A stretch of DNA of 64,000 bases from Patescibacteria group bacterium. Lineage in GTDB: Bacteria > Patescibacteriota > Kazan-3B-28 > UBA10110. Numbering within the stretch: the first letter of the stretch is position 1; the number at the start of each line of letters is the position of its first letter. Location of the stretch: NCBI GenBank assembly GCA_041659905.1, contig JBAZXK010000001.1:58670-122669 (forward strand), given 5' to 3'. The notes below the pieces were generated by a model that was not told the origin of the DNA, did not search any database, and was given only the letters and a program-made list of their open reading frames with translations. A program made the translations under genes and the position numbers. Shown here in pieces: positions 3,306 through 59,302 of the stretch.

Positions 3306-3437
3306 AATTAGATTCCCTCCTTGTTGAGCCTGCCTGCCGGTTTACCTGCCGTAGGCATGGTAGGCAGGGAGGGGTTAGGGGAGGTGGATAAATAATTAAT
3401 CCACCCCTCTCAATCTCCCCTCGGCAAGGGGAGAAGT
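3306..3437. repeat. MITE-like palindromic element family A (gagcctgcctgccgg ... ggtggataaataattaatccacccc ... cccctc..ggggag)
   Basis: near-identical copy at 38016-38178; contains perfect palindromes cctgcctgccgg/ccggcaggcagg and ggtggat..atccacc. Confidence 0.7.
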
Positions 3438-3516
3438 TCTGTTTGTTAAATGCTGACCATTTGGTGTGGTTCTTTGTCGGCTATGCTATTATAAAAGGTG
3501 CAACTTAGGAGGTAAA

Positions 3517-12074: not shown

Positions 12075-12345
12075 AAGGGCAAGCATTTAGCATCTAAGGG
12101 AGAGAAAAATAATTCCCCTCCTGCCGGAGGAGGGGCTGGGGGAGGTGGGAGTATATATTCCCCGAGCGTAGTCGAGCCTGCCTGCCGGTAGGCAGGGGGC
12201 TACTTTATAATGTCCGTCATCCTGAATTTATTTCAGGATCTCCCCACCGTCATTCCCGCGGAGGCGGAAATCCAGACAAGAAAATAAACAGAAACATTTT
12301 TTCTGTTCTTTTCTAGATTCCGGCTCGGAGGCCGGAATGACGGAC
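12075..12345. repeat. composite repeat block (family C motif, family A ggggag/cctgcctgccgg palindrome, gtcatcctgaa hairpin, family B GTCATTCC...GGAATGAC element)
   Basis: matches to the other interspersed copies listed below. Confidence 0.6.
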
Positions 12346-13724: not shown

Positions 13725-13865
13725 GTCATTCCCGACCTTTCTCTTCTGTCATCCTCGACCGACGCGCATGGCGCAGTTCGGATCGGGGATCCCTGCCTAC
13801 CGGCAGGCAGGCAGGCCTAGATCCCAGATCCTGATTTGCCTTTGGCAATCCGGTCTGGGATGACA
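13725..13865. repeat. MITE-like element family B (GTCATTCCCG ... GGGATGACA) containing palindrome cctgcctaccggcaggcagg
   Basis: terminal inverted repeats; nearly identical copies at 55792-55894 and 59011-59129. Confidence 0.7.
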
Positions 13866-13866
13866 A

Positions 13867-14175
13867 TTAATACACAGAATCTTTACTATTAAATGTTTCT
13901 AATAAATTATTTAACACCTCGTAAAAAACCGTCGTATTAAGGGAATAGATAATCTTTTGGCCTTTTCGTTCGGAAGTTGCCAGATTGGCCTGTTTCAGCA
14001 CTGAAAAATGATGCGACAGCGAGGGCAGGGACAAAGCAGGGAAGCGGGAAGCAATCTGGCCAGCTGTCAGATCTCTTTTTTGGAGCAGTTTTAATATTCT
14101 TCTCCGCGTAGGATCAGACAAGGCATGCAAGGCAACTGAGATAGATTCAATAGTCATATTTAGATATTTAAACAA
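13867..14175 (-). CDS. ArsR/SmtB family transcriptional regulator (SdpR-like)
   Basis: HTH with LSDPTRRRIL and LSHHFSVLKQANL signatures of the ArsR family. Confidence 0.8.
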   Translation of the reverse strand: MFKYLNMTIESISVALHALSDPTRRRILKLLQKRDLTAGQIASRFPALSLPSLSHHFSVLKQANLATSERKGQKIIYSLNTTVFYEVLNNLLETFNSKDSVY

Positions 14176-14224
14176 CTATCTAAATACTACCAATAGATAC
14201 TTGGATTGTCAATATTCTAGGGCT

Positions 14225-14305
14225 GTCATTCCAACTCACTCGTCATCCTGAACTCGTTTCAGGATCTTTCCTGTTGTCATCCCTAGTGGAGTCGAGGGAT
14301 CTCGG
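14225..14305. repeat. family B/B' repeat copy (gtcattcc..gtcatcctgaactcgtttcaggatc..gtcatccc)
   Basis: shares the gtcatcctgaaYt..tcaggatct hairpin with 12213-12245 and 39358-39390. Confidence 0.6.
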
Positions 14306-15602: not shown

Positions 15603-16016
15603 ATGAAGATAAGGCGGTATATTTCAACCGATTATTCTGATATTAAGCAAAACCTTATTGAAGGGGATTTGTTCTACGAGGAGTTAGATAACGAAAATAG
15701 ACTAAATCAGAAGATTCAGAAAGACCCCAATTCTATTTTGGTTGCAGATGTAGATAACAAAGCAGTCGGTAATGTCTTTATTATGGAAGATGGCTGGATG
15801 GCTCTAATATTTCATTTAGCTGTCAGAAAAGATTATCAGCATAAAGGCATTGGCACAGAACTACTAAAAGCTGCCGAAGCCTACCTTAAAGATAAGGGAT
15901 TCGAGGAAGTTCAGATTGTAGTTAGAGAAGCCAACCCTGAACTGCTGGGGTATTATGAAAAACTAGGATATCAGAAAGGCGGTTCCTTCAGGTGGATGAC
16001 CAAAGAGTTGAAGTAG
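15603..16016 (+). CDS. GNAT family N-acetyltransferase
   Basis: acetyl-CoA binding motif RKDYQHKGIGTELL; about 85% identical paralog at 24184-24600. Confidence 0.8.
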   Translation: MKIRRYISTDYSDIKQNLIEGDLFYEELDNENRLNQKIQKDPNSILVADVDNKAVGNVFIMEDGWMALIFHLAVRKDYQHKGIGTELLKAAEAYLKDKGFEEVQIVVREANPELLGYYEKLGYQKGGSFRWMTKELK

Positions 16017-18451: not shown

Positions 18452-19615
18452 TTGTATATGTTTAAAAGAATATTTTATAGTGCCTTAGTGGTTATTTTAA
18501 TTATGTCTATTTCGGCACCAGTCATGGCTGCGCCGACATTTTTAATAGCTGATGAAAATGGCATAGTTAGCCTATCCAAACCTGTCAATGACGATGCGTA
18601 TATTGCCGGCGGGAATGTAACGATTGATCAGGATATCTGGGGTGACTTATTTGTGGCCGGTGGCACCATTGATATTAATACCGACATTGCTGGGGATCTA
18701 TTTATTAGCGGTGGGAACATCTCTATTCGCGGTTCAGTCGGCGATGACGTCCACATAGGGGGAGGTAATATCTCCATTTACGGAGAGATCAAAGACGACC
18801 TGATGATTGGTGGCGGAACGGTGCTGATAGCCGACACCGCAACTGTGCGGGGAGATCTTTTGGTCGGGACAGGCAATTTTGACTTGTATGGCACAGTTCT
18901 AGGCAATGTCAAAGCCGGTTTTGGCAATGCTAAAATTGCTGGGGTAATCAATGGTAACGCCGATTTGCGCTACGGCGACGGGAAGCTCATTTTTGCTGAT
19001 GGGGCTAAGATCCGTGGCCAGTTAGATTATTGGGCAAAAAGTGAGAATAATTCCTTTGATAAGATCGCAGGGACTATCACATATCATAAAATGACCAGCT
19101 CCAGATCTAGCTTGCCAATATTCGCTACCATCTTTGTTCCCACGGTCATATTGATGGGAATGTTTTGGCCGTTTATCAGCATTTTACTTTTAGGGGGGTT
19201 ATTGATTCTATTGTTGCCTAAATATCTTCCCAGGATGGTCGAAACGACTAAAAAAGATTACTGGACAGCGCTCTGGCAAGGGTTACTGTTTATTATTGTG
19301 GCCCCGGTGTTAGCTTTGCTGATTGCTTTCACTGGAGTTGGCATACCTATATCAGTAATCATGATGCTGAGTTTTGTTATTTTGGCAATTCTCGCTAGCG
19401 TACCTGTGTCGATGGCGATCGGGAGTTATCTATTAAAATACAAAGAAGGCGACAAGGCGAAACAATTTGGCGCGCTGGCCATTGGGGCATTAGTGTATGT
19501 TATTGTCGGGTCATTCCCGCTCATCGGTTGGTTGGTTAAGCTTATTCTCTTTGTGATTGGCATCGGAGCGATCTGGGTAGATTCTCGCTCCATGATCAAA
19601 AAAGGAATTTATTAG
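18452..19615 (+). CDS. membrane protein with N-terminal signal peptide, bactofilin/polymer-forming-like Gly-rich beta-repeats and C-terminal multi-TM domain
   Basis: repeats of GG(N/T)(V/I)xIxGxVxGDL; C-terminal about 5 TM helices. Confidence 0.5.
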   Translation: MYMFKRIFYSALVVILIMSISAPVMAAPTFLIADENGIVSLSKPVNDDAYIAGGNVTIDQDIWGDLFVAGGTIDINTDIAGDLFISGGNISIRGSVGDDVHIGGGNISIYGEIKDDLMIGGGTVLIADTATVRGDLLVGTGNFDLYGTVLGNVKAGFGNAKIAGVINGNADLRYGDGKLIFADGAKIRGQLDYWAKSENNSFDKIAGTITYHKMTSSRSSLPIFATIFVPTVILMGMFWPFISILLLGGLLILLLPKYLPRMVETTKKDYWTALWQGLLFIIVAPVLALLIAFTGVGIPISVIMMLSFVILAILASVPVSMAIGSYLLKYKEGDKAKQFGALAIGALVYVIVGSFPLIGWLVKLILFVIGIGAIWVDSRSMIKKGIY

Positions 19616-24183: not shown

Positions 24184-24600
24184 ATGACGAAAATAAGACC
24201 ATACATTCCCATTGATTATCCAGATATTAAACAAAACCTTATTGAAGGGGATTTGTTTTACGAGGAGTTAGATAACGAAGGCAGAATAAATCAGAAAATT
24301 CAAAATAACCCTAATTCCATCTTAGTTACAGAGTTGGATGGTAAAGCAGTGGGTAATGTCTTTATTATGGACGATGGCTGGATGGCTCTAATATTTCATC
24401 TTGCTGTTAGAAAAGATTATCAGCATAAAGGTATTGGCACCGAACTACTAAAAGCTGCCGAATCCTATCTTAAAGATAAGGGCTATAAGGAAGTTCAAAT
24501 TGTAGTTAGAGAAGCCAACCCAGAGTTGCTGGGGTATTATGAAAAACTAGGGTATCAGAAGGGCGGTTCCTTCAGATGGATGACTAAAGAGCTACACTAG
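24184..24600 (+). CDS. GNAT family N-acetyltransferase (paralog of 15603-16016)
   Basis: about 85% aa identity to the first GNAT; same conserved junction motif after the stop. Confidence 0.8.
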   Translation: MTKIRPYIPIDYPDIKQNLIEGDLFYEELDNEGRINQKIQNNPNSILVTELDGKAVGNVFIMDDGWMALIFHLAVRKDYQHKGIGTELLKAAESYLKDKGYKEVQIVVREANPELLGYYEKLGYQKGGSFRWMTKELH

Positions 24601-39216: not shown

Positions 39217-39392
39217 GTCATCCTGCGAAGCCCGGCGTAGCCAAAGGCGAAGACGGGTCATTCCCGATCTGCCTCCGCCCAGAGGGCTCGGCCCGGCGGG
39301 ATTGGGAATCCCCTGGCCGCGTCCCGCAACAGCGGGCAGGCAGGCCTTTGTCTTCTTCGTCATCCTGAACTTGATTCAGGATCTCCAGCTTG
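39217..39392. repeat. composite family B/B' repeat
   Basis: cgtcatcctg...gggtcattccc...gggcaggcaggcc...cgtcatcctgaacttgattcaggatctcc. Confidence 0.6.
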
Positions 39393-42418: not shown

Positions 42419-43030
42419 ATGAGTGTGTTTGAGCAGATCGCAATTTGGGCGACGCAGATGATCGGGACTTTAAGTTATCCGGGAGTTTTAATGTTGATGG
42501 CGCTGGAATCCATGATTGCACCTATCCCCAGCGAGGCCGTGATGCCTTTTGCCGGCTTCTTGGTGGCCGAAGGCCAGATGAGCATGCTATCCGTAGTCAT
42601 CTGGGCCACTATCGGCTCAATTATCGGCAGTTTAATTTCTTATTACATCGGACTTTGGGGCGGTCGCGCTTTAGTTCTGAAAGTCGGTAAATATCTTTTG
42701 TTAAATGAGCATCATTTAGATGTGACAGAAAAATTCTTTCGCAAAAGGGGAGACATCACAGTTTTCATTAGCCGATTTATTCCGGTAGTTCGCCATTTTA
42801 TTAGTATTCCGGCTGGCATGGGCAAAATGCCGTTAATTCCTTTTGTGATTTATACAGCAGTTGGGGCGGGGCTATGGAACTGGATTTTAACTTATGCCGG
42901 ATTCCGCCTTCGCGCCAACTGGGCCACTATTACCCCGTATTTCCACATCGTCGACAAAGTTATTCTGGGAGTGATTGTTTTAGCTGCCCTCTGTTTTATT
43001 TGGAGCCAACTCAAACCCCGTAAAGTTTAA
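42419..43030 (+). CDS. DedA family membrane protein
   Basis: LMALESMIAPIPSE and FISRFIPVVRHFISIPAG DedA/SNARE-associated signatures. Confidence 0.8.
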   Translation: MSVFEQIAIWATQMIGTLSYPGVLMLMALESMIAPIPSEAVMPFAGFLVAEGQMSMLSVVIWATIGSIIGSLISYYIGLWGGRALVLKVGKYLLLNEHHLDVTEKFFRKRGDITVFISRFIPVVRHFISIPAGMGKMPLIPFVIYTAVGAGLWNWILTYAGFRLRANWATITPYFHIVDKVILGVIVLAALCFIWSQLKPRKV

Positions 43031-43035
43031 TCGTT

Positions 43036-43105
43036 GTCATTCCCGCGCAGGCGGGAATCCAGACATAAACAAAAACATCGTTACCTTTCTAGAAAGGTAA
43101 CGCCA
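43036..43105. repeat. family B repeat, partial copy
   Basis: gtcattcccgcgcaggcgggaatccagacataaacaaaaacatcg; right terminus not evident. Confidence 0.55.
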
Positions 43106-48909: not shown

Positions 48910-49030
48910 TCCCCGTTAGAGATCCACTGCGGTTGATTTGCACTATAAGTATGTTTAGTCCATCGATAAATAAGTTAAAATATTTATTACTAATTTGCGG
49001 AAACACGATTGTTTCCTATCTCTAACGGGG
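48908..49030. repeat. 13-bp perfect inverted repeats (ccccgttagagat / atctctaacgggg) flanking about 95 bp AT-rich segment
   Basis: spans stop of the ZIP gene and the TTG start region of murB. Confidence 0.6.
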
Positions 49031-50094
49031 TGAAAAAGAATTACTCGCAATTCATTTTGAAAAGTCCAATTAAGGTGGCGCGGGGGGTAAAACTCTCGCG
49101 GTTTTGCACTATGAAGGTGGGGGGACCGGCGGATTTATTTACGACAGCGAAAACTAAAACAGAATTGATGGAAGTTTTGCGGTTAGCCCATAAATTAGGC
49201 ATCAAATATTTTGTGTTGGCCGGTGGAAGCAATGTGGTGTTTCCGGATAAAGGTTGGCGGGGGTTGGTGGTGAGGTATACAGCCAATCGGTTTGTCATTC
49301 TGAGCGAAGTCGAAGAATCTCGAGACACTAAAGCTCGGAGATCCCTCCACTTCGGTCGGGATGACAGAAAAAAAGCCCGGAATGACGGGAAGGTTGCTCT
49401 CCGATGGAGTCCGGATACTCCGTCCTCATATGGAGTCATTGGACCGATGCTTCGATCGGAGCGGTCGCGCATCTGCGCGACCGTGGAGGCGGGGGCGATG
49501 TTGGGGGAGATGGTGCGGAAATTGTTGAAACAGGGTTTAGGCGGATTTAATTTTTTGGCGAATATCCCGGGGAGTGTCGGCGGGGCAATTGTCGGTAATG
49601 CCGGCTGTTATGGCAAAGAAACGAAAGATTTTTTAGAAGAGGTCGAAATTTTTAATGTCAAAACCGGTAGAATTTCCATAATGAAACCAAGTAAATTAGG
49701 ATTTGATTATCGCCACTCTAAATTAAAAGAGCACCCAGAATTAATCGTCTTGAGCGCAATTTTTAAATTAGCCAAAGTTGATCCAAAACAGGCGCTTAAA
49801 GAAATCGCCGCCGAAAAACAGTCGCGTTTAGACAAACATCCGCAAGGTCCCTCTTGTGGGAGTTGGTTTAAAAACCCCGAGCGGGGCGTACCGGCCTGGA
49901 AATTCATTGATCAGGCAGGTTTGCGAGGCTATACCTTAGGCAAAGCCAGAATATCTCACAAACACTCTAATTTCTTGGTTAATTGTGGGGGAGCTACCGC
50001 GACAGACATTGTCAAACTATCTCGTTTAGTTAAAAAAAAAGTTAGCTCCCAGACAGGAATTTACCTAACAGAAGAAGCCCGGCTAATCAATTAA
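49009..50094 (+). CDS. murB: UDP-N-acetylenolpyruvoylglucosamine reductase with in-frame repeat insertion
   Basis: TMKVGGPADLF, GGGSNVVF, NIPGSVGGAIVGNAGCYG FAD-binding motifs; about 45-50 extra residues between the GLVVRYTANR and VEAGAML blocks are encoded by a family B repeat (49294-49388) plus palindromes; start codon uncertain (TTG at 49009 or 49057). Confidence 0.75.
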   Translation: MFPISNGVKKNYSQFILKSPIKVARGVKLSRFCTMKVGGPADLFTTAKTKTELMEVLRLAHKLGIKYFVLAGGSNVVFPDKGWRGLVVRYTANRFVILSEVEESRDTKARRSLHFGRDDRKKARNDGKVALRWSPDTPSSYGVIGPMLRSERSRICATVEAGAMLGEMVRKLLKQGLGGFNFLANIPGSVGGAIVGNAGCYGKETKDFLEEVEIFNVKTGRISIMKPSKLGFDYRHSKLKEHPELIVLSAIFKLAKVDPKQALKEIAAEKQSRLDKHPQGPSCGSWFKNPERGVPAWKFIDQAGLRGYTLGKARISHKHSNFLVNCGGATATDIVKLSRLVKKKVSSQTGIYLTEEARLIN

Positions 50095-54468: not shown

Positions 54469-55773
54469 ATGGCTACTAAAGCCAAACCAGTGGTGACAGA
54501 TGATCCTATGGCTAAGCTGCTAGAGACAGCCGGGGATTTAGGTATTCTGAAAACCGGGGATTTGGTCGAGGGTATAGTCACCGCCGTAACTTCCAACCGG
54601 GTTTGGATCGATATTGCGGATGGTAAATTTACCGGAATAATTTCTAGTAAAGAGCTGGCGGAAGCCGGCATCTCCATGCCAAACTTCAAAGTGGGCGATA
54701 AGATCGTGGCTTCAGTTGTCGAACAAGAAAACGATGAAGGATTTGTCATCTTGAGCATCAGAGAAGCTTTGCGCAACCGGGGCTGGACTTCATTAGAAAA
54801 TCACTACAAAACCGGAGAGATGATTTCTGCCCGAGTAGTCGAAGCTAATCGCGGCGGTCTGATTATGGAAGCCGATGGCGTGCGCGGATTTTTGCCGGTT
54901 TCTCAATTAACCCCGACGCACTATCCGAGAGTAGGTAACGATAAAGACGAAATTTTAAGTAAATTATCTAAATTTGAAGGCCAAAACTTAGAAGTTAAGA
55001 TTATCGGTCTAGATAAAGATATAAATAAACTGATTTTCTCTGAGAAGGCCGCTAAACAAGAAGAATTCGATGCTCTCACTGCCAATATTCAGGTCGGAGA
55101 GGTATTGACTGGCCGCGTGAGCGGAGTGGTAGATTTCGGTATTTTTGTGAATTTTGGAGAATTAGAAGGGCTGATCCATATTTCAGAAATTAGCTGGGAC
55201 AAAGTCGATGATCCTAGAAATTATGCTAAGGTGGGCGATCGGATTCCCGTGCAAGTGATCGGTATTGAAGGTGATAAGATTTCTTTAAGCATGAAACGGT
55301 TAGTGGAAGATCGCTGGTTGGATTTGATTAAGGAATATAAAGTGGGCCAAGTAGTGGAAGGGGTAGTGACTCAAATTATGCCGTTTGGCGTGTTTGTTAA
55401 AGTCGAGGATAAAGTAGATGGACTGATTCATATCTCGGAATTGTCGTTTGAACATGTGGCCGACCCCAACGATATCGTTAAATTAGGAGACAAATTACAA
55501 TTAAAAGTTATTGATATCGAACCGGAAAGCCATCGTTTCGGCCTGTCCATTAAAGCTTTACAATTGCCAGACGAGGCGATTCCAGCTAAAAAATCGTCCG
55601 CGTCTGATTTGAATAAGTTAGGTTTATCGGATGCTTTGGTCCGCAAACTCAAGGAATCCGGTATCGATAATACAGCCATACTCAAAGCCAAATCCCTCGA
55701 GGAAATTAAGGCGATAAGCGGGATCGGCGAAAAATCTGCAGCCAAAATTATGGAAGCCCTCAAAAATGTGTAG
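54469..55773 (+). CDS. rpsA: 30S ribosomal protein S1-like (four S1 domains plus C-terminal HhH)
   Basis: repeated S1 OB-fold units (GxVxGxVxxIxxFGxFV); C-terminal GIGEKSAAKIMEAL helix-hairpin-helix. Confidence 0.75.
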   Translation: MATKAKPVVTDDPMAKLLETAGDLGILKTGDLVEGIVTAVTSNRVWIDIADGKFTGIISSKELAEAGISMPNFKVGDKIVASVVEQENDEGFVILSIREALRNRGWTSLENHYKTGEMISARVVEANRGGLIMEADGVRGFLPVSQLTPTHYPRVGNDKDEILSKLSKFEGQNLEVKIIGLDKDINKLIFSEKAAKQEEFDALTANIQVGEVLTGRVSGVVDFGIFVNFGELEGLIHISEISWDKVDDPRNYAKVGDRIPVQVIGIEGDKISLSMKRLVEDRWLDLIKEYKVGQVVEGVVTQIMPFGVFVKVEDKVDGLIHISELSFEHVADPNDIVKLGDKLQLKVIDIEPESHRFGLSIKALQLPDEAIPAKKSSASDLNKLGLSDALVRKLKESGIDNTAILKAKSLEEIKAISGIGEKSAAKIMEALKNV

Positions 55774-55791
55774 TTAACACCTATTCGCCTT

Positions 55792-55894
55792 GTCATTCCG
55801 GCCTCCGAGCCGGAATCCCTGCCTACCGGCAGGCAGGCAGGCCTGGATTCTGAATCCGAACTTGGGCCTTACGGCCAGTCGGTCCAGAATGACA
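55792..55894. repeat. MITE-like element family B copy with internal cctgcctaccggcaggcagg palindrome
   Basis: TGTCATTCCGG...GAATGACA terminal inverted repeats. Confidence 0.7.
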
Positions 55895-57738: not shown

Positions 57739-58112
57739 GCCATCGCCTCGAGCAAGTTCAACAGCAAATCCATCGGCTTATTTCCGAGTTCTTGTTAAAA
57801 GAAGGTAATTTTGGCATTGGCATTATCTCTATAAATGATATATTGGTAAGTCGGGATTTGAGTACGGTGAAGATTTGGGTGAGTTTTATCGCCGAGAAGG
57901 ATCAGGAGCAAGCCTTTAATCAACTATTGCGCCATGCTAATCAGGTTCAAACCTTCTTGTATCGAAATTTCCCAGTGAAAAAAGTACCTAAAGTTGTTTG
58001 GCAATTAGATACCAAACCTGACGCAGCCTATCGCATAGAAAAACTTTTAGATGATATCCGCCCAACTACAGGAACGAATCCGGGATCTGAAGAATCTGAC
58101 GCAAACAGCTAA
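57735..58112 (+). CDS. rbfA: ribosome-binding factor A
   Basis: follows infB with overlapping stop/start; KH-like RbfA fold, about 125 aa. Confidence 0.75.
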   Translation: MSHRLEQVQQQIHRLISEFLLKEGNFGIGIISINDILVSRDLSTVKIWVSFIAEKDQEQAFNQLLRHANQVQTFLYRNFPVKKVPKVVWQLDTKPDAAYRIEKLLDDIRPTTGTNPGSEESDANS

Positions 58113-59049
58113 AAAGATTCTAATAGTTTCTCATAGTAAACCGGATGGCGATGCTGTCGGTGCCAGTTTAGCGATGAAATTAGCTCTGCAAGCCGGAGGA
58201 CAGAGCGTGGAGGTAGCTTTTTTGGATGCTCCTCCCGAGCGGCTATCATTCCTGCCGCATTTTTTCAGTATTAAGGGTGAATTTTCTCCTCAAGATTTTG
58301 ATCTAGTTTTTTTAATTGATTGTGGCGACTGGTCGCGCACGGGTTTTTTTGCTGATACGGAATTGAATATCGATTGGCCGCCAAACTTGGCCGTGATCGA
58401 TCATCATAAGATTCAAAAACTTACTCCCGGAGTGCATATTGTCGATGCCACCGCTTCTTCCGCTTCCGAATTAGTATTTTATATTTTGACTGCTTGGGGA
58501 AGAGAAATCACCAAAGATATCGCCACCTGCTTGTTGGTGGGGATTTCTACTGATACAGGGAGTTTTCAGCACACTAATACTAGCCGAGCAGTGTTACAGG
58601 TAGCCGGGGAGTTAATGGAGAAGGGAGCCAGTTTAGGTAAAATTACCCGCTATGTTTATGCCGATAAAAGCATTGCCCGATTGAAGTTGTGGGGACGAGT
58701 ACTCCAAAAAATGCGGCGGAACCGGCGCTGGAATGTGCTTATTGCTATGATCACAGCGGCTGACTTGGAAGAGTGCCAAGCGACCGACGCGGATTTGGAA
58801 GGGGTGGTCGATCTGATGCGGACAGTTCCGCATGTTAAAGCGGTACTGTTAGGATCCGAACGCGGCGCTGAATTCAAATTTAATTTGCGCACCGAGGCGT
58901 TAGATGTGGATGTGAGCCGGTTAGCGGCCTTGTTTGGCGGAGGCGGCCATGTTAAAGCCTCCGGCTTTTCTATGCCGACATCAGATGTTGTTATTTCTGT
59001 TGCCCCTTCCGTCATTCCCGCGCAGGCGGGAATCCAGACAGAAAAATAA
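58051..59049 (+). CDS. nrnA: DHH/DHHA1 phosphoesterase (NrnA-like bifunctional oligoribonuclease/pAp phosphatase); C-terminal 13 aa encoded by a family B repeat
   Basis: HSKPDGDAVGAS, DHH (IDHH) and GGGH (DHHA1) motifs; start overlaps rbfA by about 60 nt so true start may differ. Confidence 0.7.
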   Translation: MISAQLQERIRDLKNLTQTAKKILIVSHSKPDGDAVGASLAMKLALQAGGQSVEVAFLDAPPERLSFLPHFFSIKGEFSPQDFDLVFLIDCGDWSRTGFFADTELNIDWPPNLAVIDHHKIQKLTPGVHIVDATASSASELVFYILTAWGREITKDIATCLLVGISTDTGSFQHTNTSRAVLQVAGELMEKGASLGKITRYVYADKSIARLKLWGRVLQKMRRNRRWNVLIAMITAADLEECQATDADLEGVVDLMRTVPHVKAVLLGSERGAEFKFNLRTEALDVDVSRLAALFGGGGHVKASGFSMPTSDVVISVAPSVIPAQAGIQTEK

Positions 59050-59129
59050 AAAAAGAAAAATGTTTTTGTTTGTTTTCTTGTCTGGATCCCAGATCCTGAT
59101 TTGCCTCCGGCAATCCGGTCTGGGATGAC
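59011..59129. repeat. MITE-like element family B copy
   Basis: CGTCATTCCCGcgcaggcgggaatccagaca ... gtctgGGATGACA. Confidence 0.7.
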
Positions 59130-59302
59130 AATTTTTTACTAACCTACTGACCTGTTAAAATCAGCTCTGGGAGCGGAAAACTCTTGACAAAACCTCCAAA
59201 AAGTAGTATGGTTAAATTATTGACAACAAGATTATGGTCGGAGCAGAAGTGCTCGGTAAACATACTATTCCACCTGTTAAAACAGGTGCGAAGGAGACCG
59301 AT

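What the first reader, a model, noticed from the sequence alone, without database searches (positions are those of the whole stretch)
49294..49480. murB carries an in-frame insertion of MITE-like palindromic repeat DNA in its FAD-binding domain
Between the conserved MurB blocks GLVVRYTANR and VEAGAML there are about 64 residues, where homologs such as E. coli have about 10-20. The extra DNA is a recognisable copy of the GTCATTC...GGGATGACA...GGAATGACG element seen about 10 times in intergenic DNA. It is followed by two further perfect palindromes (cggatactccg; ggtcgcgcatctgcgcgacc). The reading frame is preserved through to the normal C-terminus. So either MurB tolerates about 45 repeat-encoded residues in a surface loop, or this essential gene is inactivated.
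Basis: partly seen in the sequence, partly recalled or inferred. Interest (0 to 1): 0.7.

Follow-up and report, generated by a model that had tools for sequence, protein, structure and literature searches.

The report
Palindromic repeat DNA translated inside murB
An essential cell-wall gene (murB) of an uncultured Patescibacteria bacterium carries a 159-base in-frame insertion made of the genome's own small palindromic repeats; it sits in an exposed hairpin turn and the enzyme most likely still works, as in the known Rickettsia cases, and related bacteria carry different repeat insertions at this same turn.

Summary
murB (49009..50094, +) has 64 residues between GLVVRYTANR and VEAGAML, where uninserted orthologues have 11. 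The net gain is 53 aa (159 nt). The first 93 nt are two inverted palindromic units plus a half unit (tag YGTC, stem starting AT, short loop, 3-nt tail). They match the published "CGTC-tagged REP" superfamily, which includes Rickettsia RPE-6 and RPE-4, and about 30 such units lie in this window, mostly just 3' of genes. The remaining roughly 95 nt are other hairpin modules with no second copy in the window. The insert sits in the turn of a beta-hairpin at the start of FAD-binding domain II and is predicted to be disordered. murB outside the insert is under strong purifying selection (dN/dS about 0.08), whereas the insert evolves neutrally at protein level (about 1.1-1.2). Close orthologues carry at least six different in-frame palindromic inserts at this turn, from two unrelated repeat families, and at least three carry none. 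A distant lineage has a complete REP-associated tyrosine transposase in frame at the same turn. Verdict: a tolerated, translated repeat insertion. It is a new member of a known kind, with an unusual insertion hotspot.

The parts
49009..50094 (+). murB (UDP-N-acetylenolpyruvoylglucosamine reductase, type IIa-like). This is the longest ORF, 361 aa. The public annotation (P0001, 354 aa) starts at GTG 49030.
49294..49482 (+). The whole inserted or remodelled stretch: 63 codons replacing about 10 native codons of the beta-hairpin turn, a net gain of 159 nt (53 aa).
   Evidence: The stretch folds with z = -5.7.
49293..49321 (+). REP unit 1: tag TGTC, stem-loop ATTCTGAG-cgaagt-CGAAGAAT (8 positions with tandem G.A/A.G mismatches), tail CTC. 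It encodes VILSEVEES; V96-I97-L98 form the end of the native beta-strand.
49338..49366 (-). REP unit 2, inverted: TGTC ATCCCGAC-cgaagt-GGAGGGAT CTC, read on the minus strand. Together with unit 1 it forms a 72-nt inverted dimer (49294-49365) that folds as one long hairpin. A 72-nt dimer of the same layout is present in orthologue L003.
49366..49374 (+). AGA AAA AAA (R-K-K), probably what is left of the native turn codons (GGG AAA AAA in uninserted orthologues).
   Evidence: comparison with L007, L002 and L003; inference
49376..49387 (-). Half unit CGTCATTCCGGG (tag plus the start of the stem, read on the minus strand), a remnant of a further REP. It is shared with orthologue L001.
49388..49398 (+). 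Short linker (GG AAG GTT GCT) shared with orthologue L001.
49399..49443 (+). A 45-nt module found only in this genome's allele and absent from L001. It contains the hairpin GGAGT-ccggat-ACTCC and direct repeats of ATGGAGTC. Its borders are ambiguous by a few nt because CCGATG occurs at 49401-49406 and again at 49444-49449.
49444..49482 (+). A module shared with L001, made of the hairpins CCGAT-gcttcg-ATCGG and GGTCGCGCA-tc-TGCGCGACC. The second hairpin shows a compensatory G-C to A-T change relative to L001.
12215..12342 (.). Intergenic cluster of CGTC-type REP units: 12215 (+), 12249 (+) and 12314-12342 (-).
13725..14303 (.). Two intergenic REP clusters, 13725-13865 and 14225-14303. The unit at 14275-14303 is the closest relative in the window of murB unit 2.
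   Evidence: (pair I7)
37803..37921 (.). Intergenic inverted REP dimer. It includes the canonical unit CGTC ATTCCCGC gaag GCGGGAAT CCA.
39217..39385 (.). Intergenic REP units, with tags at 39217, 39257 and 39359 (the last unit spans 39358-39385).
43035..43061 (+). A single REP unit just 3' of ORF 42419..43030.
55791..55893 (.). Inverted REP dimer just 3' of ORF 54469..55773.
59010..59130 (.). Inverted REP dimer. Its first unit supplies the last 13 codons and the stop codon of a DHH-family gene (...VIPAQAGIQTEK*).
63868..63986 (.). Inverted REP dimer. Its first unit supplies the C-terminal tail and the stop codon of trmD (...VIPDRIAKGKPGSGIQKEK*).

Best explanation
The insert is a mosaic of small palindromic mobile-type repeats that landed in the coding sequence of murB. 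It is transcribed and translated straight through.

**Shown**
- Its 5' part is an inverted dimer, plus a half unit, of CGTC-tagged REPs. This is the family that includes Rickettsia RPE-6 and RPE-4.
- Its 3' part consists of further hairpin modules added in at least two later steps. One step is shared with an orthologue and one is unique to this genome.
- The DNA sits in the turn of the first beta-hairpin of FAD-binding domain II. Its ends supply the last residues of the flanking strands (V-I from GTC ATT).
- The added 53 residues are Arg/Asp/Glu/Ser-rich and are predicted to be an unstructured loop.
- The catalytic and FAD-binding parts of MurB are untouched and under strong purifying selection.
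- The insert is neutral at the protein level, yet it changes more slowly than the synonymous sites of the flanks and keeps its stems by compensatory changes. It therefore evolves as a palindromic DNA/RNA element, not as a protein segment.

**Inferred**
- The enzyme stays active.
- This turn is either a uniquely permissive site or a 'nest' where a first repeat attracted later ones. That would explain why close relatives carry at least six different inserts there.
- How the units move is unknown, because no dedicated transposase is known for CGTC REPs and none is present in the window.
For: **Size and position.** The insert size and position come from anchor distances and from the PDB alignment: query 23-89 maps to 3tx1 37-103 and query 151-360 maps to 111-318.

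**Structure model.** AlphaFold2 gives strands 95-98 and 155-160 with pLDDT 23-30 between them.

**Location in MurB.**
- Query residue 155 aligns with P. aeruginosa MurB residue 87.
- In that enzyme domain II is aa 76-191 and its sheet begins with beta6-beta7 (PMC3689657).
- The insert therefore lies in the beta6-beta7 turn.

**Repeat family.**
- They match the published definition of CGTC REPs: tag CGTC or TGTC, 8-9 bp stem starting AT, loop 4-5 nt, 3-nt tail such as CCA, mostly inverted dimers, and location 3' of ORFs (PMC3733652).
- That paper's supplement lists R. conorii CGTC-1 peptides VIPAKAGI and SFPRKRES.
- The same peptide, VIPAQAGIQ, ends a gene in this window.

**Reading frame.** There are no stops in the frame used, and stops in the other + frames, in 8 of the 10 insert alleles; L085 and L154 each have one alternative + frame without stops.

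**Selection.**
- The flanks have dN 0.13 and dS 1.5-1.7.
- The insert has dN 0.39-0.42 and dS 0.34-0.35.
- Compensatory stem changes are seen: ATTCT/AGAAT versus ATTCC/GGAAT against L003, and GCGCA/TGCGC versus GCAC/GTGC against L001.

**Not required for function.** Close orthologues without any insert exist (L002, L007, P0007), so the insert is dispensable.

**Reproducibility.** The same DNA is present in a second public record.
Against: - There is no direct evidence of translation or of enzyme activity.
- The AlphaFold model rests on a shallow alignment of 19 sequences, so 'disordered' is only suggestive.
- The 3' half of the insert has no other copy in the 64-kb window, so its repeat nature rests on its palindromic structure and on its absence from other alleles.
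- The exact stem subtype of the murB units is not found elsewhere in the window.
- The rest of the genome was not available, so a second murB copy cannot be ruled out. None is present in the window.
Confidence: 0.8

Rival explanations
1. murB is inactivated by the insertion and is a recent pseudogene. The organism would then rely on another copy or on its host.
For: The added loop is large (53 aa) and sits 6-8 residues before a loop that contributes to the FAD pocket (the beta7-alpha3 loop; PMC3689657). Patescibacteria have reduced genomes and live as symbionts (general knowledge).
Against: - The ORF is intact, with every invariant MurB column conserved.
- dN/dS of the flanks is about 0.08 against two orthologues that are themselves inserted.
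- Eleven or more differently inserted orthologues all keep the frame.
- The protein passes the NCBIfam equivalog cut-offs.
- No second murB is present in the window.
Confidence: 0.05
2. The loop is a lineage-specific functional extension that has been exapted, for example as an interaction surface, and only happens to derive from repeats.
For: The turn carries extra residues in most members of the close clade. A distant clade (P0065, P0072, P0083 and others) keeps a 50-70 aa insert at the same turn, with a semi-conserved motif ending in GRDS.
Against: - In the close clade the inserts differ completely in sequence and length, and several orthologues have none.
- dN/dS within the insert is about 1.1-1.2.
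- What is conserved is the DNA palindromes, not the peptide.
Confidence: 0.08
3. The element is removed or skipped at the RNA or translation level (an unrecognised intron, or programmed ribosomal bypassing of a hairpin element), so it never appears in the protein.
For: The insert is extremely structured as RNA (z = -5.7). Hairpin elements that are bypassed by ribosomes are known in yeast mitochondria (my own knowledge, not checked here).
Against: - Every allele seen keeps the frame and avoids stops only in the frame that is used. Removal or bypass would not require this.
- There is no Rfam match even at E = 1.
- The element ends contribute residues that replace native strand residues.
- One caveat applies: the alleles were found through intact ORFs, which biases the sample towards in-frame cases.
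Confidence: 0.04
4. The insert is an assembly artefact: repeat-induced mis-joining in a metagenome-assembled genome.
For: Short repeats are a classic cause of mis-assembly. One relative (P0004/L088) shows a 41-aa gap at this place compared with an otherwise identical protein.
Against: - Identical sequence over 2065 nt is present in a second record.
- Inserts at the same place are found in independent samples and assemblers.
- The frame is preserved, and the gene order Zip-murB-...-gyrA is conserved.
Confidence: 0.03

Closest known systems
Rickettsia palindromic elements (RPE), in particular RPE-6 and RPE-4, which Di Nocera et al. 2013 equate with CGTC-1 and CGTC-4 REPs
   Same: - Short palindromic repeats inserted in frame into housekeeping genes and translated.
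- Hydrophilic peptides placed in loops.
- The same tag-stem-tail design, and even the same encoded peptides (VIPAKAGI / VIPAQAGIQ).
- Insertion as dimers or clusters encoding 20-82 aa.
   Different: - The host is a Patescibacteria (CPR) bacterium, not an alphaproteobacterium.
- The target gene is murB, which is not in that paper's list of intragenic cases.
- The insert is a layered mosaic with extra hairpin modules that are not CGTC units.
- Orthologues carry different inserts at the same turn. To my knowledge this has not been described for RPEs.
CGTC-tagged REP superfamily (Di Nocera, De Gregorio and Rocco 2013, PMC3733652)
   Same: - Tag CGTC or TGTC.
- Stem of 8-9 bp beginning AT.
- Loop of 4-5 nt.
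- Tail CCA, CTC or CTA.
- Inverted dimers.
- Location just 3' of ORFs.
- Occasional intragenic copies.
- No associated transposase.
   Different: - The two units inside murB have tandem G.A mismatches in the stem and a 6-nt loop.
- Several window copies have longer, composite stems (for example 13858, 59123 and 63869).
- The paper's text lists five phyla for CGTC repeats and does not name Patescibacteria.
REPIN-RAYT systems (GTAG-tagged REPs mobilised by a REP-associated tyrosine transposase)
   Same: Two inverted hairpin units form a larger hairpin of about 70-120 nt, present as a within-genome population. In a distant MurB (P0105) a RAYT flanked by inverted hairpins sits at the very same turn.
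   Different: - The tag is CGTC, not GTAG.
- No RAYT is present in the window.
- CGTC REPs are reported to lack a dedicated transposase.
- REPINs are typically extragenic.
Inteins
   Same: Selfish DNA kept in frame inside an essential, conserved gene.
   Different: There are no splicing domains, no Pfam or NCBIfam hit in the insert, and at 53 aa it is too short. The peptide is expected to remain in the protein.

Membership tests
CGTC-tagged REP superfamily (PMC3733652) | An unpaired tetranucleotide tag, CGTC (or TGTC/CCTC), at one end of the palindrome | tested here: met
   The murB units carry TGTC, TGTC and CGTC. Window copies carry CGTC or TGTC.
CGTC-tagged REP superfamily (PMC3733652) | Stem of 8-9 bp that begins with complementary A-T residues at positions 1 and 2 | tested here: met
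   Every unit starts AT and ends AT. Canonical copies have perfect 7-9 bp stems. The murB units have 8 stem positions, of which positions 6 and 7 are G.A/A.G mismatches.
CGTC-tagged REP superfamily (PMC3733652) | Loop of 4-5 nt and a 3-nt unpaired tail (consensus CCA) | tested here: inconclusive
   Canonical copies meet it: loops GAAG, GCAG or TTTAT, and tails CCA, CTC or CTA. The murB units have 6-nt loops and a CTC tail. Several other copies have long composite stem-loops.
CGTC-tagged REP superfamily (PMC3733652) | Mostly arranged as inverted dimers and located just downstream of ORFs | tested here: met
   Inverted pairs lie at 12249/12335, 13748/13858, 37823/37914, 55792/55887, 59011/59123, 63869/63979 and 49294/49359. 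Most lie within 0-50 nt of a gene's 3' end.
Rickettsia palindromic elements (in-frame RPE insertions) | In-frame insertion in a conserved protein gene, absent from orthologues, at a surface-exposed position that leaves the fold intact | tested here: met
   In-frame status is shown. Absence from L002, L007 and P0007 is shown. The beta-hairpin turn with low pLDDT is shown. Surface exposure is inferred, not measured.
REPIN-RAYT system | A cognate single-copy RAYT gene flanked by the same REPs in the genome | tested here: inconclusive
   No RAYT-like sequence was found in the 64-kb window by tblastn. The rest of the genome could not be searched.
REPIN-RAYT system | GTAG tag 5' of the hairpin | tested here: not met
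   The tags are CGTC or TGTC.
MurB (UDP-N-acetylenolpyruvoylglucosamine reductase), type IIa | FAD_binding_4 plus MurB_C domains, scores above the equivalog thresholds, and a conserved Arg/Ser/Glu catalytic set with Ser as proton donor | tested here: met
   - Domains are shown and equivalog scores.
- The best PDB hits are type II enzymes, 3tx1 and 1hsk.
- R235, S285 and E356 are invariant columns.
- Assigning these residues to catalysis rests on my knowledge of the family and on PMC3689657 (Ser as proton donor in type IIa).
Group I/II introns, ribozymes and other curated RNA families | A match to an Rfam covariance model | tested here: not met
   There was no hit at gathering thresholds in the window apart from four tRNAs, and none at E <= 1 in 49150-49600.

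The most novel reading that the evidence does not exclude
The beta6-beta7 turn of MurB may be a genuine, recurrent landing site for hairpin-type mobile DNA across bacterial phyla, not merely a place where insertions are tolerated.

- In the close Patescibacteria clade at least six different inserts occupy it. They come from two unrelated repeat families: CGTC REPs, and a 'CCCCT...AGGGG' element that is intergenic in this window.
- In a distant lineage a whole RAYT transposase with its flanking REP hairpins is kept in frame at the same turn.
- If this reading is right, these elements either recognise something in this stretch of murB DNA or RNA, or they use an essential gene's permissive loop as a safe harbour from which they cannot be lost by gene decay.
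Probability: 0.25. Interest if true: 0.65.

Novelty: new member of a known kind. Interest (0 to 1): 0.45.

Why it matters
- In-frame palindromic repeat insertions have so far been described mainly in Rickettsia and a few Proteobacteria. This case extends them to the candidate phyla radiation and to an essential cell-wall enzyme.
- It explains why the annotated MurB is about 50 residues too long. It also explains odd peptides such as VIPAQAGIQ at the ends of genes in these genomes.
- The set of orthologues forms a natural experiment: no insert, six kinds of insert, and layered inserts, all at one turn. It bears on how proteins tolerate and acquire new loops, and on how REP-like elements spread and turn over.
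- The contrast between strong protein-level selection in the flanks and DNA-level conservation in the insert shows that a selfish or structural nucleic-acid element can persist inside a coding region.

Tried and rejected
- **Exact 16-mer of the murB unit in the window.** It found no other close copy, so the statement 'same element about 10 times' had to be relaxed to 'same superfamily'.
- **Literature search by sequence string.** It returned only primer matches and was useless.
- **Protein database search with the 63-aa insert peptide.** It found no candidates, not even the protein itself, so it says nothing about how widespread the peptide is.
- **tblastn for a RAYT in the window.** Nothing was found.
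- **Rfam at gathering and permissive thresholds.** Nothing was found in or near the insert.
- **Terminator scan.** No intrinsic-terminator-like site lies inside the insert on the sense strand.
- **Neighbour-joining tree of the C-terminal 213 aa, to ask whether inserted alleles are monophyletic.**
  - The tree is star-like.
  - Insert types do not follow it. For example, P0010 and P0014 share an identical insert but have different C-termini.
  - This suggests recombination or chimeric assemblies, and the tree cannot decide between one ancestral insertion and many.
- **A third lineage, P0104.** It has a longer turn, but its DNA is not recognisably REP-like.
- **The 143-aa minus-strand ORF 49041..49472.** I regard it as a by-product of the stop-poor repeat sequence.
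Full report
**1. What is at the coordinates**

The ORF 49009..50094 (+) encodes a 361-aa protein. It is MurB:
- Pfam finds MurB_C and a split FAD_binding_4 domain.
- NCBIfam equivalogs PRK13905 and TIGR00179 are passed.
- The best solved relatives are type II MurB enzymes, 3tx1 (E 3e-42) and 1hsk.

The public database holds the identical protein, annotated as UDP-N-acetylmuramate dehydrogenase of a 'Patescibacteria group bacterium'. Its nearest named relatives are 'candidate division Kazan'. A second record (GCA_041664485.1, JBAYKS010000001.1) is identical to the window over 2065 nt around the gene. No second murB is present in the window.

**2. Size and position of the extra segment**

- The PDB alignment breaks in two. 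Query 23-89 matches 3tx1 37-103, and query 151-360 matches 111-318.
- The distance between the anchors SNxxFxD and FLANIPGS is 116 aa here. It is 63 aa in 51 of the 120 homologues listed, of which 94 could be measured, and in all uninserted close orthologues.
- The net insertion is therefore 53 aa (159 nt). In detail, 63 codons (49294-49482) replace about 10 native codons (K-I-G-S-G-K-K-F-A-E in L007).
- An AlphaFold2 model built on 19 orthologues places beta-strands at 95-98 and 155-160, with pLDDT 23-30 in between.
- Query residue 155 aligns with P. aeruginosa MurB residue 87. In that enzyme domain II is aa 76-191 and its sheet begins with beta6-beta7 (PMC3689657). By inference, the insert lies in the beta6-beta7 hairpin turn at the start of FAD-binding domain II.
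- The added peptide is 40% charged and 18% Arg, against 24% charged and 5% Arg in the rest of the protein.

**3. Anatomy of the insert**

Searches give the following layout.
- **49293-49321 (+).** One unit: TGTC | ATTCTGAG cgaagt CGAAGAAT | CTC.
- **49338-49366 (-).** A second unit in inverted orientation: TGTC | ATCCCGAC cgaagt GGAGGGAT | CTC. Together the two units form a 72-nt inverted dimer (49294-49365) that folds as one long hairpin.
- **49366-49374.** AGA AAA AAA, probably the native turn lysines.
- **49376-49387.** A half unit (CGTCATTCCGGG on the minus strand).
- **49388-49398 and 49444-49482.** These are shared with orthologue L001. They hold two further hairpins, CCGAT-gcttcg-ATCGG and the perfect GGTCGCGCA-tc-TGCGCGACC.
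- **49399-49443.** A 45-nt module with its own hairpin. It is absent from L001 and bordered by CCGATG on both sides.

The whole stretch folds at -87.9 kcal/mol, z = -5.7 against shuffles. No Rfam family matches it.

**4. What the units are**

The window contains 18 copies of GGRATGAC against 3.3 expected. It holds about 30 units of the form YGTC + AT-stem + loop + AT + 3-nt tail, usually as inverted pairs and usually right after a gene's 3' end. A typical copy is CGTC ATTCCCGC gaag GCGGGAAT CCA.

This matches the published description of CGTC-tagged REPs:
- The tag is CGTC, often TGTC.
- Stems are 8-9 bp and 'almost invariably' start with AT.
- Loops are 4-5 nt and tails are near CCA.
- Inverted dimers predominate.
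- Copies lie downstream of ORFs, with occasional intragenic copies.
- No dedicated transposase is known (PMC3733652).

That paper equates R. conorii CGTC-1 and CGTC-4 with RPE-6 and RPE-4. Its supplement lists the encoded peptides VIPAKAGI and SFPRKRES, and dimers such as SFLRKQES...DSRFRGND. In this window a DHH-family gene ends ...VIPAQAGIQTEK* and trmD ends ...VIPDRIAKGKPGSGIQKEK*. In both, the tail and the stop codon are supplied by a REP.

The murB units are atypical members, with tandem G.A mismatches in the stem and a 6-nt loop. Their exact subtype has no second copy in the window, and the nearest is the unit at 14276 (pair I7). The 3' half of the insert has no other copy in the window at all. 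No RAYT-like gene is present in the window.

**5. Comparison with orthologues**

The orthologues lie in the same gene order, DUF5671-Zip-murB-...-gyrA. Within the close clade (56-76% identity) the same turn carries the following:
- **Type A.** A CGTC dimer starting GTC ATT: this window (+53 aa), L001 (+51) and L003 (+21).
- **Type B.** A three-hairpin element GTCATTCTGG...CCAGGATGAC read in another frame: L005, L006 and L012 (+24 to +28).
- **Type C.** A 'TCTCCCCT..AGGGGAGA' element: L085 and L156 (+43 to +46).
- **Type D.** Another CGTC heterodimer: L154 (+28).
- **Type E.** A single inverted CGTC unit plus other sequence: L155 (+22).
- **Type F.** A 4-aa remnant: L157.
- **No insert.** L002, L007 and P0007.

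Type C belongs to the same family as three intergenic elements of this window (3375-3445, 38115-38185, 60555-60625). At least two unrelated repeat families have therefore entered this turn. All alleles are in frame. In 8 of the 10 alleles only the frame in use is free of stops; L085 and L154 each have one alternative + frame without stops. These alleles were found through intact ORFs, which biases the sample. No other indel hotspot is visible along MurB in this clade. A tree of the C-terminal half is star-like and does not follow insert type, so the number of independent gains remains open.

**6. How the insert evolves**

- Against L001 and L003 the flanks give dN 0.13 and dS 1.5-1.7, a dN/dS of about 0.08.
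- The alignable insert codons give dN 0.39-0.42 and dS 0.34-0.35, a dN/dS of about 1.1-1.2.
- MurB is therefore under strong purifying selection, while the peptide encoded by the insert is not.
- The insert's DNA has nevertheless changed far less than the neutral expectation set by the flanks' synonymous sites.
- Two stem positions show compensatory double changes.
- Possible causes are a younger age, concerted evolution with other copies, template-switch correction of quasi-palindromes, or selection on the hairpins. These cannot be separated here.

**7. Wider pattern**

- A distant clade (about 38% identity, labelled bacterium, Planctomycetales or UBP7) has 50-70 extra residues at the same turn.
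- One member, P0105 (L084 4654-6147), has 200 extra residues that match the NCBIfam REP-associated tyrosine transposase model (74 bits, E 1e-20, just under the cut-off of 80) and Pfam Y1_Tnp.
- These residues are flanked by inverted hairpins GGTGG-GGCGGGCAttccTGCCCGCC ... GGCGGGCAagaaTGCCCGCC-CCACC, and the whole lies in one ORF with MurB.
- A further Patescibacteria lineage (P0104) has a longer turn with no recognisable repeat.

**8. Interpretation**

The best-supported reading (confidence about 0.8) is a translated, tolerated insertion of CGTC-type REP/RPE-like DNA plus accessory hairpins in a solvent-exposed hairpin turn of a functional MurB.
- Inactivation is contradicted by the conservation data.
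- A functional, exapted loop is contradicted by the turnover and by dN/dS near 1.
- RNA-level removal is contradicted by the universal preservation of frame.
- Assembly error is contradicted by the replicate records and the independent samples.

What is new is the host phylum, the target gene, the layered build-up and, above all, the concentration of different inserts at one turn. Whether that reflects targeting, nesting on a first insert, or only an exceptionally permissive site is not settled.

**9. Verdict**

This is a new member of a known kind (in-frame REP/RPE insertions). Interest is moderate at 0.45, and it would be higher if the hotspot proves to be targeted.

Noticed in passing
L084 4654-6147 (protein P0105; Logan assembly SRR32818657, 39.5-kb contig): A MurB of a distant lineage carries a complete REP-associated tyrosine transposase (NF047646, 74 bits; Pfam Y1_Tnp). 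It is flanked by inverted GTGG-tagged hairpins and lies in one continuous 497-aa ORF, at the same beta-hairpin turn as the insert studied here.
   Followed up: partly
window 58051-59049 and 63218-63928: A DHH-family gene and trmD both end in REP-encoded tails (...VIPAQAGIQTEK* and ...VIPDRIAKGKPGSGIQKEK*). The repeat supplies the last 13-20 codons and the stop codon.
   Followed up: partly
window 3375-3445, 38115-38185, 60555-60625: This is a second palindromic repeat family (TCTCCCCTT..GAGGGGAG..). It is intergenic here, but in relatives L085 and L156 the same family is inserted in frame in the murB turn.
   Followed up: partly
L088 (protein P0004, candidate division Kazan GW2011) versus L005/L086 (P0003): An otherwise identical MurB lacks 41 residues, including native strand residues and most of the type B insert. 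This is either a repeat-mediated deletion or an assembly error.
   Followed up: no
proteins P0010 and P0014: The two MurB proteins share an identical N-terminal half and insert but have clearly different C-terminal halves. This suggests recombination within murB or chimeric contigs.
   Followed up: no
window 15603-16016 and 24184-24600: Two GNAT acetyltransferase paralogues are 85% identical over 300 nt and lie 8.6 kb apart, an unusual duplication for a small genome.
   Followed up: partly
window 19510-19517, inside ORF 18452..19615: GTCATTCC occurs near the 3' end of a 387-aa ORF without a recognisable hairpin. It is either a chance match or a decayed half unit.
   Followed up: no
window 31720-36501: A 1593-aa ORF has internal direct repeats of about 690-720 nt period (34351, 35029, 35749). 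It is probably a repetitive surface protein.
   Followed up: no
window 49041-49472 (-): A 143-aa antisense ORF overlaps the insert. It is most likely an artefact of the stop-poor, GC-richer repeat DNA.
   Followed up: no
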